A stretch of 10,504 nucleotides of DNA from a virus. Taxonomy: Duplodnaviria > Heunggongvirae > Uroviricota > Caudoviricetes. The position numbers and the translations under genes are program-made. Positions 1 to 10,504 of the stretch are shown piece by piece. Under the pieces are notes generated by a model that searched no databases, had not been told where the DNA came from, and saw only the letters and a list, made by a program, of their open reading frames with translations. The stretch lies in the IMG/VR virus record IMGVR_UViG_2541047882_000009, positions 1-10,504 of that record; one strand, given 5' to 3'. Position 1 is the stretch's first letter; each line of letters begins with the position of its first letter.

Positions 1-580
1 TTAATTTATTGAATTTAAACGATAAATATCGCCACAAATAACGTTAAAAATCGCAAATTGACTACACCATTAACTACACCGTTCGGTGCACTGTATGCAA
101 CAACGTGGAACAAATAGACACAAGCGATATACAGGAAGGGACGATTTTTCTATGCAGATTTGCATAGTTCTAAATGAAGCTGGTGGATGATCACGGATAA
201 CCCGTTATGGGGATCACCATATCGACATCACGCCCACCAGCGAGATTAGTTACCTGGTTGCTGATGGGGGGCTGACGAACCTCGATGTCAGGATGCACAA
301 AACTAGTGAGACCTTTTTTCTCTGCAACAGGCCCATAATTCGCGTTTTCTTTGTCTGCCGTAAGGTGGGGGATTTTGGGCGGATCCAGCAATGGCGCGGA
401 TTTTGTTATTTTTTATAGATAGACCTCACCTATCAATCACATGCACATCTTCCCAAAAAAAGTTTTCGAACTTGCGGCGATGTGAACAAGGGTAGGCGGG
501 CGGTCCCATAAGCAATGGGGCGTAGGGATTTCGATCCCCCCGGGGGTATTAAACACCCCCCTATTTAAATACCGTCTTTT

Positions 581-630
581 TTGTCACTGTGTGTCACTGG
601 TTGTCACTCTCCGTCACGGTATGTCACCAT
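581..630. repeat. Five tandem 10-bp direct repeats with GTCAC core (tTGTCACTnn)
   Basis: Seen in sequence: ttgtcactgt, gtgtcactgg, ttgtcactct, ccgtcacggt, atgtcaccat, contiguous at exact 10-bp phasing. One additional TTGTCACTCA copy lies at 1181-1190. Confidence 0.7.
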
Positions 631-1183: not shown

Positions 1184-1768
1184 TCACTCACCTTTCTGTT
1201 GCCGTAATTTCTCCGGCACGTTTCCGGTTGTTTCCATCAGGTAGTCTTTCAGAATGCGGGGCAGGTTATCGGCAGTTTTAGCGCACGCATTACAGGCGCG
1301 TGCTGTTTCTTTCCTCAGGCCCTCGATCATTGCCGGAGTCATCGCGGGGAACTGCCTTTGCATTGTGAGCGGTAAACTATCCATGATCGAAGAAATCTGG
1401 CGCGCCAGACCACGAAGCGCATAGAGAACGAACTCAGTATCTGTAACTTCCCCCGCCTCTCTGGCGTTCTTCAGTTCCTGCCCGTCCGCCTGTGCTTTGG
1501 TGAGACGGTAGCGTTCGTACTCTGTTGTGCCTGGCTGTAAATCTGATTCACCAGCAGCACGTAAATCATCAAGCTCCCTGCGGAGTTTTTCGTTTTCGAT
1601 GTCCTTCTCCCTCTGTGCATACCATTCGATCACCTGTGCAGAGTCGAAAGTCACTTCCACACCTTTACCCCCACCAGATACATGGGGAAGCCCTTGCGTT
1701 TGCCATCGTTCAATCGTGCGCGGATCGACGCCAAAAATCTTCGCAAGATTATTTTTATTAACATTCAT
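1184..1768 (-). CDS. terS: Terminase small subunit, lambda Nu1 family, 194 aa
   Basis: Seen in sequence compared with recalled lambda Nu1: [103 protein letters not shown] aligns almost colinearly with [109 protein letters not shown] SD 10 nt upstream. The recognition-helix region differs from lambda. Confidence 0.9.
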   Translation of the reverse strand: [194 protein letters not shown]

Positions 1769-4789: not shown

Positions 4790-5037
4790 GCTGTCTGTTC
4801 TCCGGTTTTAACGTTGATGGTTGTCACCTGTTCCGCTTCGGCAATCTCCCGCTCTGTCAGCGTGGCAAAGTTTGCCGCCGCCGTGGTCATGAATGCGCTT
4901 ATCAGTTCGGGATGTGCTTTCGCGTATCCTTCTCCGGCATGGCGGTCTATCGTTCTGATTGCCACCTTTAAGGCGTGCTCTGTCATGTCTAATGCGCGAT
5001 ATTTTGGTGCTGTCTTATCTCTGGTTTTTCTGGTCAT
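4786..5037 (-). CDS. Hypothetical protein, 83 aa (the six-frame ORF extends to 5169 but the upstream part is made of iterons)
   Basis: Seen in sequence: the internal Met at 5037 has an AGGTGG SD 4 nt upstream, and the 5-prime extension of the ORF overlaps the iteron array, so the shorter start is preferred. The stop overlaps the ssb start (ATGA). No family recognised. Confidence 0.5.
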   Translation of the reverse strand: MTRKTRDKTAPKYRALDMTEHALKVAIRTIDRHAGEGYAKAHPELISAFMTTAAANFATLTEREIAEAEQVTTINVKTGEQTA

Positions 5038-7181: not shown

Positions 7182-7638
7182 GGCTTACATCCTCCGGGAA
7201 TTTTCTTCTGTAACGCGCCTCTGCCACATATTCCGCATAGTCCGACGCAATATTGAGAATATCGCTACCCGTTCCTGAATGTTTGGCGGTTTCCAGCAAA
7301 AAACATGCAGCTTTTACCATGTCAGCAACACATAACAGCGCAATATCTGTATCTTCCGGTGCGCCATCAAATTCCTGTTTCAGGGCATTAAAACGATCAT
7401 CACGCATAACCCCCCCATTTTCACAATCAGCAATCAGGATGGCTTTAGCCTCATTCAGTGCCATATCAGCGGTAAGCTGTGCGTAGGCCAGCGAATGGGG
7501 GATTATTTCCCCTGTATATTCCGTCTCTCTGGTAATGTGTTTTTCTGCGGTTGCTGCCGTGCATGAAATATCAATCAGCGCGTGCATCAGCGTTTTGATG
7601 GCTTCGGCGGCTGCGTCCGGACGGGTGTTATTGCACAT
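7174..7638 (-). CDS. Hypothetical acidic protein, 154 aa
   Basis: Seen in sequence: ORF with start overlapping the upstream stop and stop overlapping the downstream start, so it is translationally coupled within the operon. No family recognised. Confidence 0.6.
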   Translation of the reverse strand: MCNNTRPDAAAEAIKTLMHALIDISCTAATAEKHITRETEYTGEIIPHSLAYAQLTADMALNEAKAILIADCENGGVMRDDRFNALKQEFDGAPEDTDIALLCVADMVKAACFLLETAKHSGTGSDILNIASDYAEYVAEARYRRKFPEDVSHV

Positions 7639-7834
7639 GGCGCACCCCCTGACGAATACGGGCGGCGAATACCATCACACAGCCAGCCGGGGATTGCTGG
7701 CGTGCTTCCTGTTCGCTGGTGGCCTCAATGGTAATCACACGCGGTTGTGCCGTGCTCAGGGCGATAAAACGCCAGATGTATTTATTCAGGTTGTGCGAGT
7801 CCCGCCCTTGCGGGTGTGTGGTATGATTTCTCAT
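7628..7834 (-). CDS. Small protein, 68 aa, resembling Icd/Ash-like proteins of P4-like elements
   Basis: Seen in sequence: ATG at 7834 preceded by a GAGGT SD; the stop overlaps the start of the next gene (ATGTGCAATAA). It forms the in-frame C-terminal part of the spurious long ORF 7628..8680. Recalled, not searched: the motif ...RFIALSTAQPRVITIEATSEQEARQQSPAGCVMVFAARIRQ resembles Icd-like host cell division inhibitor family proteins. Confidence 0.5.
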   Translation of the reverse strand: MRNHTTHPQGRDSHNLNKYIWRFIALSTAQPRVITIEATSEQEARQQSPAGCVMVFAARIRQGVRHVQ

Positions 7835-8030
7835 AGCTACCTCGATACGCTTTCTATCGTTGGTGGTTAGACGCCCTGCATGTGTGCCACCACTGCGGGG
7901 CGTTGCTGTATATACACCACAATTATTGGTGTGCATACAGATTAAATTTAAGTGTGCTACAGTGTCAAGTGTTTTATTAACACACCTTTTGGTGTAATGT
8001 GTACACACCTCAAAATAACCGGACATCCTA
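7835..8030. promoter_or_regulatory. Divergent promoter/operator region between the small-regulator gene and the replication operon
   Basis: Seen in sequence: AT-rich gap containing several ACACC/GGTGT inverted repeats (ACACC-N9-GGTGT near 7914-7932, ACACC-TTTT-GGTGT near 7982-7995, GTGTACAC near 7999-8006). A minus-strand sigma70-like promoter is present: -35 TTGACA (complement of 7963-7968), 16-bp spacer, -10 TTTAAT (complement of 7941-7946). A leader hairpin lies near 7872-7900. Confidence 0.5.
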
Positions 8031-8330
8031 ATGGCAACAGGAAACATCAACAGCAGATCGCAAATGAAAAATATCCGCTTCCCCCATGATGTAATCGAGG
8101 AAATGGAAAATTCGAAAACGGAAGGGGAAACAATAGCCGCTTTCGTGATTACAGCTGTTCGCGGGGAGATCGCCCGCCGCCAAGCTGAAGGAAGCGGAGA
8201 AAATCCCCTGGTTTCTTCGCTCGATGCACTGGCGCAGGTGGAAAAAATTGGAGTCAAAGCTGCCGAGGAGATCGGGCAACTCGTCGCCGTCGCGCGTGAA
8301 GAACTCCAGCGCCGCAAGGCCAAAGAATAG
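8031..8330 (+). CDS. Small DNA-binding protein, ribbon-helix-helix-like; candidate repressor of the divergent replication operon
   Basis: Seen in sequence: 99-aa ORF and the only convincing plus-strand gene, divergent from the minus-strand operon. Inference: the N-terminal segment KNIRFPHDVIEEMENSKTEGETIAAFVITAVRGEIARR fits a beta-strand then two helices as in Arc/MetJ/CopG folds. The SD is weak (GGA only) and the true start could be the internal Met at codon 12. Confidence 0.5.
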   Translation: MATGNINSRSQMKNIRFPHDVIEEMENSKTEGETIAAFVITAVRGEIARRQAEGSGENPLVSSLDALAQVEKIGVKAAEEIGQLVAVAREELQRRKAKE

Positions 8331-8437
8331 GAATAGCCCACCAGCAAGCCAGCACACTGATCACATTGCCCACCAGCCGCAAATGTGGCATTGTTGGCTA
8401 TGCTCATGCGTTGGGGATAACGTGTAGCTTGTGTCGA

Positions 8438-8468
8438 GGGGCCACCGTAGCGGGTGGCCTTTGTTTTG
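8438..8468 (+). terminator. Rho-independent terminator downstream of the plus-strand regulator gene
   Basis: Seen in sequence: stem GGCCACC / GGTGGCC (8440-8446 and 8453-8459) with loop GTAGCG, followed by TTGTTTT. Confidence 0.55.
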
Positions 8469-8563
8469 CCTGTTATCCTGCAACTATGGTCATTTCGACC
8501 ACGGTTGATATAACCCCCCTGCACTGATCCAATTTTTTCGCAGCAGGTTAATTGTTCAGAAAG

Positions 8564-8591
8564 GCGGCTCCATTTCGGGGCCGCTTTTTTT
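8564..8591 (+). terminator. Second plus-strand rho-independent terminator
   Basis: Seen in sequence: stem GCGGCTCC / GGGGCCGC (one G-U pair) with loop ATTTC, followed by a run of seven T. Confidence 0.55.
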
Positions 8592-8732
8592 ATGCCTGAA
8601 AAACCACAATTTTGTTGTTTTCCAGTCTCACCAGGACGAGCGAAGCCCCGCCCCTGTTCGGGCGTATATCCAGTCTTCATGGTTAAATCTCTGTATTAGT
8701 GGATGGGAGGCGGCTGTGTGCCGCCAGCCTGA

Positions 8733-8936
8733 TTAGTGAACTGCCTCGCGGCTGTCCTTCCATGCCAGAACTTCGGATAAAGACCAGCCAACGGAACGAC
8801 CGCCGAGTTTACGCCGTGATGGGAATTGTCCGGTTTTTTCCAGGCGGTACCGACATGAGCGGCTCAGGCCTGTAAGTTGCTGACATTCTTTTTCACGTAT
8901 AAAGCGATCAGTGCTTAACACTATTGCCTCCGTCAT
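8733..8936 (-). CDS. alpA: AlpA-family (excisionase-like, MerR-type HTH) DNA-binding regulator, 67 aa
   Basis: Seen in sequence: 67-aa ORF downstream of int on the same strand. Established knowledge: the size and the motif ...QQLTGLSRSCRYRLEKTGQFPSRRKLGGRSVGWSLSEVLAWK... are typical of AlpA/Vis-like regulators of P4-like prophages and Gram-negative PICIs. An int then alpA order is the canonical layout. Confidence 0.8.
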   Translation of the reverse strand: MTEAIVLSTDRFIREKECQQLTGLSRSCRYRLEKTGQFPSRRKLGGRSVGWSLSEVLAWKDSREAVH

Positions 8937-9189
8937 TTCTCAAAGAGTCATTTGGTGTCTTATTGTGTCGTATTGTTCCCGCTGGAGTGATGAATGGCAA
9001 ATATTGGTGACGGCCATTTTACAGAAATGGGGTAATTAGAATAAAAATACTTTTAAATCATTGTGATAAAGTAGCGTAAAATTCTGTTTTTACGTCTTTT
9101 TTACATGTTTTTAAGAGTGATTCGCCAGTGTATAAAAAAACAGTATGCATATAAAAATCAAATGTTTATGGCGCTGTTTGATTTTTAAT

Positions 9190-9257
9190 CCGTTTGTTCC
9201 AGATTGTTCGCCGTTGTTCGTCGTGGTGTCTCGTTGTTTCACGTTGTGTCCGTTCTG
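9190..9257. repeat. Six to seven tandem 10-bp direct repeats (nCGTTGTKTC) downstream of int and upstream of the alpA promoter
   Basis: Seen in sequence: ccgtttgttc, cagattgttcg, ccgttgttcg, tcgtggtgtc, tcgttgtttc, acgttgtgtc at 10-bp phasing. A related trio (TTGGTGTC, TTGTGTCG, TTGTTCC) at 10-bp phasing lies at about 8944-8973, directly upstream of the alpA start. Confidence 0.65.
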
Positions 9258-9274
9258 AAAAATCGCGAAAAAAA

Positions 9275-10504
9275 TTATATTTCTCTGGCTATTGGCAGTG
9301 TGGTTACGTTTTCGTGAGCACCTGCCAGTATCTCTAATCGCTCTGTCCACATATCCAGCGCGTTACGTTTCGCATCAATATAGCGGGAGTGGTTATAGAC
9401 TCGTTGCATCCCTGGCATCTGGTGGGCGGTAAGTTGCTCGACAATATGCGGATCCACGCCTAAATCGTTCAGCATCGTGGTAAACGTGCGCCGTATATCG
9501 TGCAGGGACCAGTGAGGATGGTTTAATTTTTTGTGCGTAAATCTGCCGTATTGTGACACGCTGGCTTCCTGTTTCAGTTCTCCGAGTAATAACCCTGTGT
9601 GCCTGTTCTGCTCCACCAGCTGCGTGACGAACGGCAAAATGCTTTCCGGTATTGGCCTGAATATGGCGACCTTCGTTTTGCTGTGTTCTTTCGGTACCGT
9701 CCAGAGCATTTCCTTAAAATCCCACTCCCTGATCTCCGACAGCCTCAGTTCTCCGGTCCGGCAGCCGAACACAATCAGGAGGCGGATTAGTGCGCTGTAG
9801 TAGGGCGGGAATATTTTTTTATCCAGCGCCTGTAATAATTCGCCCAGTTCTTTGTTACTAAGCACGCGTTCGCTTATGCCCGGCTTTTTGCCAACGTCCA
9901 GCACGTTGAGATCATCCAGAACGTTACTGACTGCGTAGCGACGTTTACGGCAGAACTTAAGCGCCTGTTTGCACGCCTGCATCATGTGGCCAGATGTTAC
10001 GGGTGATTTTTTGCGTATCCGGTCAAAACAGGCCAGCCAGTGACGCAACTCGCATTTATCCAGCGGCATATTGCCAATATGCTGTATGACGTGATTATTC
10101 AGGCGGCTTTTCAGGGAGACGTAATCGACACGGTTTTCCTTTACGTGCATTTCCAGCCAGTAGCTGATCGCATCGCCTACCGTTACCGGCTTTAGTGCTT
10201 CCTGTATGGAGTAATTAAGCTCATGGCGTGGATTTTTTCCCTCTGCCAGCCATGCGCGACACTGTGCTGCTTTTTCCCTGGCTGCTTTCAGGCTCAGATC
10301 CGGATAATTTCCCAGCTTCAGGCGTTCCGGTGATACCTGGCGTCCTGTTCCTGCCCTGTAGGTGAAATACCAGGTTAACAGACCGCTGGTGGAGTGTCTG
10401 ATACTCAGATTTCCACCGTCATTAAGAAAGGTGGTTTTTTGGGCTGGTGTGCCGTTGATTTTTCTTAGCTGCGTGTCGCTCAGTTTGTTAAGTGCCCTGC
10501 TCAT
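9275..10504 (-). CDS. int: Tyrosine site-specific integrase, P4-type, 409 aa
   Basis: Seen in sequence: 409-aa ORF whose ATG is the last three bases of the window. Established knowledge: the N-terminal arm-binding-like segment (LSDTQLRK...FLNDGGNLSIR...WYFTYR...LKLGNYPDLSLKAAREKA) and the C-terminal catalytic region with HxxR and a terminal Tyr context (HDIRRTF...HQMPGMQRVYNHSRY) match the P4 integrase family layout. The promoter and any att site or tRNA would lie beyond the window. Confidence 0.9.
   Translation of the reverse strand: MSRALNKLSDTQLRKINGTPAQKTTFLNDGGNLSIRHSTSGLLTWYFTYRAGTGRQVSPERLKLGNYPDLSLKAAREKAAQCRAWLAEGKNPRHELNYSIQEALKPVTVGDAISYWLEMHVKENRVDYVSLKSRLNNHVIQHIGNMPLDKCELRHWLACFDRIRKKSPVTSGHMMQACKQALKFCRKRRYAVSNVLDDLNVLDVGKKPGISERVLSNKELGELLQALDKKIFPPYYSALIRLLIVFGCRTGELRLSEIREWDFKEMLWTVPKEHSKTKVAIFRPIPESILPFVTQLVEQNRHTGLLLGELKQEASVSQYGRFTHKKLNHPHWSLHDIRRTFTTMLNDLGVDPHIVEQLTAHQMPGMQRVYNHSRYIDAKRNALDMWTERLEILAGAHENVTTLPIAREI

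What the first reader, a model, noticed from the sequence alone, without database searches (positions are those of the whole stretch)
8944..9257. Two sets of 10-bp phased CGTTGTKTC-type repeats flank the alpA promoter region
Six to seven tandem copies lie at 9190-9257 just after the int stop, and three related copies lie at 8944-8973 directly upstream of the alpA start, with an AT-rich promoter-like stretch between them. Repeats on one helical face on both sides of a promoter suggest cooperative binding or DNA looping by a regulator, which could be AlpA itself, the RHH-like protein, or Int.
Basis: seen in the sequence. Interest (0 to 1): 0.45.

Follow-up and report, generated by a model that had tools for sequence, protein, structure and literature searches.

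The report
Predicted AlpA operator arrays in a PICI

Summary
On the minus (coding) strand, six units with core GRMACAA lie at exact 10-bp spacing at 9252-9193, just 3' of int. Three more lie at 8981-8952, just 5' of alpA. No shuffle of the window gives such a chain.

The window is an almost complete EcCICFT073-type PICI. The arrays are kept in eight diverged relatives, CFT073 included. So are a TTGCCA-17-(A/C)ACAAT promoter whose -10 is the first proximal repeat, an IHF consensus next to the distal array, and a 220-223 bp array-to-array distance.

The same phased motif lies in both att arms, between a 12-bp tandem doublet (the counterpart of the P4 attP arm repeats) and the core. This is the layout of P4 Vis and KplE1 TorI sites.

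Published primers place the AlpA-activated PalpA reporter of EcCICFT073 exactly on this intergenic region, tested without Int. The arrays travel with the int-alpA module, not with the replication or DUF4222 genes.

Best reading: cooperative AlpA (Vis-like excisionase/regulator) operators that serve both excision and autoregulation. Binding itself is untested, and Int arm-type binding remains a rival.

This is a new member of a known kind (Apl, Cox, Vis, TorI, RdfS). It is useful because AlpA's sites and the PICI induction mechanism are unmapped.

The parts
9193..9252 (-). Distal array: six 10-bp units (core GRMACAA), head to tail, starting 22 bp after the int stop codon
   Evidence: Sequence. 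TRF period 10. Chain of 6 versus at most 3 in 500 shuffles. Kept as 4-6 units in L001-L005, L008, CFT073 and L013.
9156..9168 (+). IHF consensus AATCAAATGTTTA (WATCARNNNNTTR), 24 bp promoter-side of the distal array
   Evidence: This is the only match in the spacer. A match lies at the same position (-168/-169 from the -35 hexamer) in all 8 variants, with the four N positions varying. The chance of at least one match in spacer shuffles is 0.05.
8982..9155 (-). AT-rich spacer (25-30% GC over most of it) that contains the predicted -35 hexamer TTGCCA (9000-8995) and an invariant block at about 9140-9105
   Evidence: Composition, alignment A1 and promoter scan.
8972..9000 (-). Predicted sigma-70 promoter of alpA: TTGCCA, 17 bp, AACAAT. 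The -10 hexamer is the core of the first proximal repeat
   Evidence: This is the only promoter-like hit in 8600-9400. TTGCCA-17-(A/C)ACAAT is kept in all 8 variants, including those with a 10-11-bp insertion downstream. No transcription-start data are available.
8952..8981 (-). Proximal array: three 10-bp units that overlap the -10 hexamer, the predicted start site and the early leader
   Evidence: Relatives have 2-4 units here, and the length differences are whole units.
8733..8921 (-). alpA, 62 aa from GTG 8921, with RBS GGAGG at 8931-8927. The ATG at 8936 gives 67 aa
   Evidence: Pfam Phage_AlpA E=3.4e-18. RefSeq homologues are annotated at 189 bp. 46% identical to P4 Vis. Matches PDB 8c3t, an AlpA-family protein.
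9275..10504 (-). int, a tyrosine integrase with an N-terminal arm-type DNA-binding domain
   Evidence: Pfam Arm-DNA-bind_3 and Phage_integrase.
85..124 (+). Far att arm: four phased units of the same motif (GGTGCACTGT ATGCAACAAC GTGGAACAAA TAGACACAAG)
   Evidence: Sequence and matrix hits at 95 and 105. Homologous arrays lie in both arms of L005 and CFT073 and in the int-side arm of L001.
57..80 (+). 12-bp tandem doublet ATTGACTACACC ATTAACTACACC, the probable Int arm-type sites
   Evidence: TRF. The same doublet lies in both arms of L005 and CFT073. It is absent from the int-alpA region. It is the counterpart of the annotated 12-bp tandem 'attP arm sequence repeats' of P4 and of the HE-PICI doubled motif (PMC10111431).

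Best explanation
The 10-bp phased GRMACAA repeats are most likely operator arrays for the island's own AlpA protein. AlpA is a 62-aa winged-helix protein of the Vis/excisionase kind.

**Role at the att arms.** The arrays lie between the probable Int arm-type doublet and the core. There AlpA would bend DNA to build the excisive complex.

**Role between int and alpA.** A six-site array, an IHF site, an AT-rich spacer and a three-site array on the weak promoter TTGCCA-17-AACAAT together form an att-arm-like regulatory module. Once helper-phage infection raises AlpA, filaments on the two arrays are held in phase about 21 turns apart and folded by IHF. They remodel the promoter region and give the positive autoregulation measured in EcCICFT073. 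At high AlpA, occupancy of the promoter-overlapping array may cap expression.

**Shown here:** the repeats, their phasing and conservation; the same motif at the att arms; linkage to the int-alpA module; and the fact that the published AlpA-responsive fragment is exactly this region.

**Inferred:** that AlpA is the binder, that IHF binds, where transcription starts, and how binding turns into activation.
For: 1. The arrays are non-random and exactly phased.
2. Across 41 distinct units from eight variants and the att arms, information sits in a 7-bp core. Positions 6-9 (ACAA) carry 1.4-2.0 bits; linker positions 1, 2 and 10 carry 0.13-0.17 bits. In alignment A1 the AACAA cores of units 4-6 are invariant while the linkers vary. 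Copy number changes by whole 9-11-bp units.
3. The same motif, phased the same way, lies in both att arms. On the int side it forms two blocks between a 12-bp tandem doublet and the core.
   - This order (core, RDF block, RDF block, arm-type sites, int ATG) is the mapped order for TorI in KplE1: five sites in two blocks, one of them three sites separated by 2 nt, with cores GTTCG/GATCG/GTCCG (PMC2951348; sequence).
   - It also fits P4, where the 12-bp tandem pairs are annotated as attP arm repeats. In P4, phased GGACAAC/GGAAGAC/GGACGAA units lie between those pairs and the core.
4. AlpA is 46% identical to P4 Vis. RDFs as a class bind tandem repeats one turn apart, and several also regulate promoters away from att through sites of the same sequence (PMC7498355; PMC3936717; PMC11963761).
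5. The primers of Fillol-Salom 2018 map the PalpA-lacZ fragment pJP2038 to CFT073 L012 2628-3083, equivalent to window 8864-9306. That fragment is the int-alpA region with both arrays. It is activated by pBAD-alpA in DH5alpha, which carries no island and hence no Int (PMC6092414).
6. The doublet motif has no copy in that fragment. If the alternative assignment were true (doublet = AlpA sites), the AlpA-responsive fragment would lack AlpA sites.
7. Modularity.
   - Relatives H21-H30 share window 174/632-8594 at 95-98% but carry another int-alpA module and another left end. L006 has no such arrays.
   - L001 and CFT073 carry a primase instead of the RepA helicase but have the same arrays.
Against: - No binding data exist for AlpA of this family.
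- Int and AlpA always travel together in the loci I could fetch, so covariation cannot separate them. L013 is 87%/87% identical for Int/AlpA; L114 is 54%/67%.
- RDF sites are usually on one att arm only, but here the motif is on both arms, as Int arm-type sites are.
- Lambda P'1-P'3 show that Int arm sites can also be three contiguous 10-bp repeats.
- An array over the -10 and +1 is the position of a repressor, not an activator. The distal array, about 200-260 bp upstream, is far for direct activation.
- In EcCICFT073 AlpA had no effect on a Pint reporter (PMC6092414), unlike Vis and TorI. I could not find the Pint primers in the 1.4 kb upstream of int, so that fragment may not contain the arm arrays.
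- The promoter is predicted, not mapped.
Confidence: 0.6

Rival explanations
1. The GRMACAA arrays are Int arm-type sites, bound by the N-terminal Arm-DNA-bind_3 domain. The copies between int and alpA would let Int control alpA, or would hold Int near its gene.
For: - The motif is on both att arms in the same orientation, as expected for arm-type sites.
- Lambda P'1-P'3 are three contiguous 10-bp direct repeats.
- Int has an arm-binding domain.
- Int and the arrays always co-occur.
Against: - A better arm-site candidate exists: the 12-bp tandem doublet next to the int start on one arm and at a matching place on the other. P4 annotates the equivalent pairs as attP arm repeats. The HE-PICI doubled motif has the same layout, and CP4-57 has a similar doublet upstream of intA.
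- On the int side the arrays lie between that doublet and the core, which is where RDF sites lie in KplE1.
- AlpA activates the array-containing fragment without Int, and that fragment has no doublet copy.
- Runs of six exactly phased units fit an RDF filament better than arm sites.
Confidence: 0.15
2. The arrays, or at least the distal one, are the target of a helper-phage protein such as the helper's own excisionase. That protein would switch on alpA, as P2 Cox switches on P4 PLL through phased cox-boxes upstream of vis.
For: - Helper phages induce alpA transcription by an unknown factor (PMC6092414).
- In EcCIMP1 induction persists in a delta-alpA mutant, and PICI AlpA-type proteins cross-talk with the helper Xis (PMC11773190).
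- P2 Cox binds at least six 10-11-bp spaced boxes upstream of P4 PLL and derepresses P4 (PMC3936717). These boxes are visible as three 10-bp repeats at P4 9176-9205.
- Lambda X1 (TATGTTGTGTTTT) shares GTTGTGT with the unit CGTTGTGTC, and X2 (TATGTAGTCTGTT) resembles the doublet GGTGTAGTCA.
Against: - The motif also sits in the island's own att arms, which argues for an island-encoded binder.
- The resemblance to the lambda sites is a 7-mer and could be chance.
- AlpA and lambda Xis show no sequence similarity.
- Helpers as different as lambda and phi80 both induce.
- AlpA alone activates the fragment.
Confidence: 0.1
3. The two repeat sets flanking an AT-rich stretch are replication-origin iterons, as in SaPI and P4 origins.
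For: Iterons on both sides of an AT-rich region are the classic origin layout. The units loosely recall the P4 type 1 iteron TGTTCACC.
Against: - The arrays do not track the initiator. The window has a RepA/AAA_25 helicase, whereas L001 and CFT073 have a primase but the same arrays.
- L006 has the same helicase block at 97.6% identity but no arrays.
- L001 carries TGTTCACC-type 10-bp repeats just downstream of its primase gene (4896-4927), where PICI origins are reported (PMC10111431).
- The motif recurs in the att arms.
Confidence: 0.03
4. The intergenic arrays are an inactive relic of a duplicated att arm, or they bind a host nucleoid protein and have no specific role.
For: - The module resembles an att arm (array, bend site, array).
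- L114 lacks the distal array and has a cargo gene between int and alpA, so the intergenic arrays are not universal among AlpA/Int relatives.
Against: - Cores are conserved against variable linkers.
- Indels come in whole units.
- The IHF consensus is conserved while its N positions vary.
- The 220-223 bp spacing is fixed across variants that differ by about 20% in sequence.
Confidence: 0.07

Closest known systems
Satellite phage P4: Vis (AlpA family), its boxes between int and the attP core, and its control of PLL, the promoter of vis itself
   Same: - The protein is a homologue (46% identity).
- 12-bp tandem arm repeats lie on both arms.
- Phased GGA-type units lie between those repeats and the core.
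- One small RDF serves both excision and control of the promoter that drives its own gene (PMC7498355; details of Vis Box I/II are from my memory of Cali et al. 2004).
   Different: - In P4 vis is 5 kb from int. Vis is reported to repress int and PLL, whereas PICI AlpA activates PalpA and did not affect Pint.
- P4 PLL has two GAACAAA copies 34 bp apart rather than long phased arrays.
- The 10-bp repeats upstream of PLL belong to the helper's Cox.
Coliphage 186 Apl (and P2 Cox): an RDF with operator arrays at attP and at a promoter region
   Same: Direct repeats at 10-11-bp spacing: 7 at pR-pL and 5 at attP. Binding is head to tail and cooperative, with low specificity per site, and bends the DNA (PMC7498355; PMC3936717). 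The array sizes compare with 6+3 at PalpA and 4+3 / 4 at the att arms here.
   Different: Apl and Cox are not AlpA-family proteins. They repress their switch promoters. Their sites lie on one att arm.
KplE1/CPS-53 TorI sites in attL
   Same: Five cooperative sites lie in two blocks between the core and the int promoter. One block is three 8-bp sites separated by 2 nt, with core GTTCG, which resembles TTGTTCG here. Arm-type sites lie next to the int ATG (PMC2951348).
   Different: TorI is only 26% identical over 42 aa. No promoter array at torI is described. TorI represses intS.
EcCICFT073 alpA regulatory region (Fillol-Salom et al. 2018)
   Same: This is the homologous region (about 88% identity over the L002/CFT073-type module) with the same arrays, promoter and IHF consensus. 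It shows AlpA-dependent autoactivation and helper-dependent induction.
   Different: That paper mapped no binding site and did not describe the repeats. The window is another allele (AlpA about 90% identical) joined to a RepA-helicase replication module.
HE-PICI doubled att motif tgTGTATTGCantgTGTATTGCa (Williams lab, PMC10111431)
   Same: A tandem 12-bp doublet, one co-oriented copy on each att arm at a fixed distance from the crossover. This is the counterpart of ATTAACTACACC x2 here.
   Different: The authors state that the motif was not found in other PICIs and leave the binder open (Int arms, AlpA or unknown). They do not describe the 10-bp arrays. In HE-PICIs alpA abuts int with no spacer.

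Membership tests
RDF (excisionase-type) operator arrays, as for lambda Xis, 186 Apl, P2 Cox, KplE1 TorI and P4 Vis | Direct repeats spaced one helical turn (10-11 bp) apart, all in one orientation, three or more adjacent | tested here: met
   6 + 3 units at exact 10-bp spacing on the minus strand.
RDF (excisionase-type) operator arrays, as for lambda Xis, 186 Apl, P2 Cox, KplE1 TorI and P4 Vis | The same motif occurs in the att region, between the Int arm-type sites and the core | tested here: met
   Seen in L001, L005, CFT073 and L013 on the int side, in two blocks. Also present in the far arm, including window 85-124.
RDF (excisionase-type) operator arrays, as for lambda Xis, 186 Apl, P2 Cox, KplE1 TorI and P4 Vis | A small winged-helix RDF-family protein is encoded by the element | tested here: met
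   alpA: Pfam PF05930 E=3.4e-18, 46% identical to P4 Vis, PDB 8c3t match.
RDF (excisionase-type) operator arrays, as for lambda Xis, 186 Apl, P2 Cox, KplE1 TorI and P4 Vis | The protein binds the repeats cooperatively and bends the DNA | not testable with these tools
   Needs EMSA or footprinting. Indirect support only: the homologous 456-bp CFT073 fragment responds to AlpA in trans without Int.
RDF (excisionase-type) operator arrays, as for lambda Xis, 186 Apl, P2 Cox, KplE1 TorI and P4 Vis | Sites confined to one att arm (usual for RDFs, though not strictly defining) | tested here: not met
   The motif is present on both arms.
Integrase arm-type sites | Located in the att arms, outside the RDF/IHF sites relative to the core, and limited to the att region | tested here: not met
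   On the int side the arrays lie core-side of the 12-bp doublet. Two further arrays lie 1.3-1.5 kb from the core, between int and alpA. The doublet fits this definition better.
Integrase arm-type sites | Bound by the Int N-terminal domain | not testable with these tools
   Int has the Arm-DNA-bind_3 domain.
Replication-origin iterons (SaPI/PICI ori, P4 ori/crr) | Repeats co-vary with, and lie next to, the initiator gene | tested here: not met
   The same arrays occur with a RepA helicase (window) or a primase (L001, CFT073). The same helicase block occurs without arrays (L006). L001 has TGTTCACC-type repeats downstream of its primase.
Gram-negative PICI of the EcCICFT073 type (identity of the element) | int and alpA at one end, co-oriented with replication genes and a few lambdoid head/packaging genes; about 10-11 kb; flanked by att repeats | tested here: met
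   Pfam and PHROGs hits for int, alpA, the DUF4222 protein, RepA helicase, SSB, major capsid protein (lambda E type), head decoration protein and terS. Same gene order as CFT073 and E110019.
Pseudomonas AlpA-type (Q-like) antitermination element | A single binding element between -35 and -10 plus a -10-like pause site; the protein has eight helices (DNA-contact residues numbered up to 142) | tested here: not met
   The protein here has 62 aa, and the sites are multi-copy arrays outside the -35/-10 spacer.

The most novel reading that the evidence does not exclude
The distal six-unit array may be the entry point for the long-sought helper-phage inducer of Gram-negative PICIs. A helper-encoded excisionase-like protein would bind the island's phased repeats and start alpA transcription, after which AlpA takes over on the same sites. 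This would be the PICI counterpart of P2 Cox activating P4 PLL. It would mean that satellites sense helper induction by eavesdropping on the helper's own excision factor.
Probability: 0.1. Interest if true: 0.8.

Novelty: new member of a known kind. Interest (0 to 1): 0.42.

Why it matters
AlpA is the master switch of Gram-negative PICIs and cf-PICIs. Without it there is no induction, excision or transfer. Yet none of the PICI papers I could search maps its DNA sites, and the way helper phages turn alpA on is still listed as unknown.

These arrays give concrete, conserved candidate sites in the model island EcCICFT073 itself:
- a promoter-overlapping array,
- a distal array with an adjacent IHF site,
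- matching arrays in both att arms.

They link excision and autoregulation to one protein and one motif. They also turn the induction question into simple footprint, phase-shift and reporter experiments.

The general principle, an excision factor binding phased repeats at att and at a promoter, is already established in 186, P2, P4, KplE1 and ICEMlSym.

Tried and rejected
1. **Covariation to separate AlpA from Int.**
Two of them (Geobacter, an alphaproteobacterium) have no comparable repeats.
   - Relatives found through the protein search keep both motifs: L114 (AlpA 67%, Int 54%) has the same doublet and TTGTTCG-type arm arrays. L116 is too distant.
   - HE-PICIs, fetched through their doubled motif, have alpA abutting int with no spacer, so they give no test.
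2. **Other int-alpA modules.** L006 has different elements: a 20-bp direct repeat upstream of alpA and TAGCTA repeats in the att arm. The architecture is therefore specific to this module family.
3. **Pseudomonas AlpA antiterminator model.** Rejected because the protein and the site layout are different.
4. **Origin iterons.** Rejected on modularity (see the rivals).
5. **Intrinsic terminator after int.** None found on the coding strand.
6. **Known RNA families.** None found in the window.
7. **AA/TT helical periodicity in the spacer as a sign of intrinsic curvature.** Power is raised at 9.5 and 11 bp but not at 10 bp, and the shuffle control is weak. Inconclusive.
8. **The published Pint reporter primers.** They are not in the 1.4 kb upstream of CFT073 int, so I cannot say whether that construct held the arm arrays.
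9. **A publication for PDB 8c3t.** None found in the library.
10. **Resemblance to the lambda Xis sites.** Checked against the lambda sequence. It is only a 7-mer, and the proteins are unrelated by BLAST.

Full report
**1. The observation**

All genes in the window run on the minus strand. The int gene is 10504-9275. The alpA gene starts at GTG 8921 (RBS GGAGG 8931-8927) or at ATG 8936, and ends at 8733.

- Distal array, coding strand: 9252-9193 = CGGACACAAC GTGAAACAAC GAGACACCAC GACGAACAAC GGCGAACAAT CTGGAACAAA.
- Proximal array, coding strand: 8981-8952 = CGGGAACAAT ACGACACAAT AAGACACCAA.
- Tandem Repeats Finder gives period 10 in both places.
- The core [AC]AC[AC]A forms a chain of six at exact 10-bp spacing. 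The best of 500 dinucleotide-preserving shuffles is three.
- A matrix-based chain scan finds only these two arrays in the window, against 0.015 arrays per shuffled window.
- The stretch between the arrays has 25-30% GC.

The coordinates are a few bases off, and the 'seventh' copy is degenerate.

**2. What the element is**

- Gene order and size match EcCICFT073, the model Gram-negative PICI, which I fetched from the CFT073 genome. They also match an 11-kb island between smrA and abgR in strain E110019.
- The window runs from the far att junction (position 1) to the int start codon. It therefore holds one att arm (1 to about 130) but not the arm upstream of int.

**3. Conservation**

- The int-alpA region has homologues at 77-94% identity in 821 of 5426 complete E. 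coli genomes.
- I compared eight variants: the window, L001-L004, L008 (Shigella), CFT073 and L013. All keep a distal array of 4-6 units and a proximal array of 2-4 units.
- In 41 distinct units, information sits in a 7-bp core GRMACAA. Positions 6-9 carry 1.4-2.0 bits, and the three linker positions carry 0.13-0.17 bits.
- Length differences inside the arrays are whole units of 9-11 bp.
- The only sigma-70-like match in 8600-9400 is TTGCCA (9000-8995), 17 bp, AACAAT (8977-8972). TTGCCA-17-(A/C)ACAAT is kept in all eight variants, including those with a unit inserted just downstream. The first proximal repeat is therefore also the -10 hexamer, and the other proximal units cover the predicted start and early leader.
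- The distance from the last distal core to the -10 core is 220-223 bp in every variant, about 21 helical turns.
- One IHF consensus (WATCARNNNNTTR) lies at window 9156-9168, 24 bp from the distal array. It is at the same position in all eight variants, and its four N positions vary. This is the pattern expected of a real site.

**4. The same motif in the att arms**

*Int-side arm.* In L001, L005, CFT073 and L013, the region between the chromosomal junction and the int start codon reads, from the int end:
- a 12-bp tandem doublet (ATTAACTACACC x2, or GGTGTAGTTAAT x2 on the other strand),
- 4 nt,
- four phased units (for example ATTGCACAAG GGGGTACAAC GTGGAACAAG TTGGAACAAG),
- an AT-rich 36 bp,
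- three more units (AATGAACAAC GTGGCACATT ATGAAACAGC),
- the core.

*Far arm.* It carries the same doublet plus four units, co-oriented. In the window these are 57-80 and 85-124.

The doublet motif occurs nowhere else in the window or in the CFT073 int-alpA region.

*Comparison with P4, HE-PICIs and CP4-57.*
- P4 has 12-bp tandem pairs on both arms, annotated as 'attP arm sequence repeats'.
- A published HE-PICI 'doubled motif' has the same layout.
- CP4-57 has a similar doublet upstream of intA.
- In P4, phased GGACAAC/GGAAGAC/GGACGAA and GGACTTT/GGATGGT/GGAAGTA units lie between the doublet and the core. From memory, this is where Vis boxes I and II were footprinted.

*Comparison with KplE1.* The mapped order is core, two TorI sites, three TorI sites separated by 2 nt (core GTTCG), arm-type sites, int ATG. 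The layout here is the same.

**5. Link to experiments**

- The supplementary primers of Fillol-Salom et al. 2018 map exactly onto CFT073. The PalpA-lacZ fragment (pJP2038) is L012 2628-3083, equivalent to window 8864-9306. It is the int-alpA intergenic region with both arrays and the first codons of alpA.
- That fragment is activated by arabinose-induced AlpA in DH5alpha, which carries neither the island nor Int. The longer pJP1290 fragment is induced by helper phages.
- An AlpA-responsive element therefore lies inside this fragment.
- None of the PICI papers I could search (PMC6092414, the cf-PICI preprints, the PICMI paper, the EcCIMP1 paper, the HE-PICI paper) maps AlpA sites or mentions these repeats.

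**6. Who binds**

The arrays travel with the int-alpA module.
- Relatives H21-H30 share window 174/632-8594 at 95-98% but have another int-alpA module and another left end. One of them, L006, has no such arrays. This removes the DUF4222 protein, the helicase and the packaging proteins as candidates.
- L001 and CFT073 have a primase instead of the helicase but the same arrays. L001 has P4-type TGTTCACC repeats downstream of its primase. The arrays are therefore not iterons.

Between AlpA and Int, I favour AlpA for five reasons:
- Long, exactly phased runs fit an RDF filament.
- The arrays lie core-side of the doublet.
- The AlpA response needs no Int.
- The responsive fragment has no doublet copy.
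- AlpA is 46% identical to P4 Vis.

RDFs as a class bind tandem repeats one turn apart and often regulate promoters through att-like sites.

Against AlpA: the motif is on both arms, and Int arm sites can also be contiguous 10-bp repeats (lambda P'1-3). I also found no natural recombinant that separates the two genes.

**7. Mechanism**

The int-alpA region looks like an att arm turned into a switch: array, IHF bend, AT-rich DNA, array on a weak promoter.

I propose that cooperative AlpA filaments on the two in-phase arrays, folded by IHF, remodel this region and produce the measured positive feedback. This could work by contacting RNA polymerase from a loop or by relieving silencing of the AT-rich DNA. 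The promoter-overlapping array may limit expression at high AlpA. The distal array could also block read-through from int.

These steps are inference. Only the anatomy, its conservation and the mapping of the responsive fragment are shown.

The first trigger from the helper phage remains unknown. The invariant block at about 9140-9105 and the arrays themselves are candidate targets. The P2 Cox / P4 PLL precedent keeps a helper-excisionase model open at low probability.

**8. Verdict**

The feature is real, conserved and very probably functional. It is a new, unmapped instance of a well-known kind: RDF operator arrays shared between att and a promoter. It sits in an actively studied satellite family.

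Noticed in passing
window 581-627: Five GTCAC units at exact 10-bp spacing (TTGTCACTGT GTGTCACTGG TTGTCACTCT CCGTCACGGT ATGTCACCAT). They lie just 3' of the last small ORF and beside a G/C palindrome at 533-548. This is a second, unrelated phased array. It is absent at the matching place of CFT073.
   Followed up: partly
window 9156-9168 (+): An IHF consensus, AATCAAATGTTTA, lies at the same position in eight variants while its N positions vary. It is one arm of the perfect 11-bp inverted repeat 9152-9162 / 9177-9187.
   Followed up: yes
window ~9105-9140 (-): The most conserved non-repeat block of the int-alpA spacer is TTTTTTTATACACTGGCGAATCACTCTTAAAAAC. It contains ACACT/TCACT 11 bp apart and has no promoter match. 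It is a possible site for the unknown helper-phage inducer or a host factor.
   Followed up: no
window 57-80 (+): The 12-bp tandem doublet ATTGACTACACC ATTAACTACACC is present on both att arms in relatives. It is the counterpart of the annotated P4 attP arm repeats and of the HE-PICI doubled motif, which its authors reported as absent from other PICIs.
   Followed up: yes
window ~1017-1165: The region upstream of the Nu1-like small terminase gene (1184-1768, minus strand) matches lambdoid phages such as Gifsy-1 and SerU-LTIIb next to nu1. It is probably the island's cos region.
   Followed up: partly
window 7628-8680 (-): Only the last ~85 residues of this 350-aa ORF match anything (Icd-like / PHROG 'transcriptional repressor'). 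Relatives annotate a 68-aa Icd-like gene here plus opposite-strand YlcI/YnfO genes, so the long ORF is probably not a real gene.
   Followed up: partly
L001 3226-3255 (+): Three phased units of the same GRMACAA motif (ACCGAACAAC CTGGAACAAC CACGAACAAA) lie in the intergenic region upstream of the capsid genes of a relative. No equivalent array was found in the window.
   Followed up: no
L001 4896-4927 and 5032-5056: 10-bp repeats containing the P4 type 1 iteron TGTTCACC lie just downstream of the primase gene of a relative. This is the likely origin of that replication module.
   Followed up: partly
L006 12891-12930 and 14610-14690: A different int-alpA module, attached to the same island backbone, has a 20-bp direct repeat (AAAACAGTGGGTACCGTTTT x2) upstream of alpA. 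Its att arm has TAGCTA-type repeats, so the cis elements are specific to each module.
   Followed up: partly
L015 3410-3445 (CP4-57, E. coli K-12): Two 10-bp phased units, GCAACCAAAG TGAACCAATG, lie directly upstream of the K-12 alpA start. A 12-bp tandem doublet, TTAGGCCCATTG ATAGGCCCAACG, lies upstream of intA. The layout may extend to the founding AlpA system.
   Followed up: no
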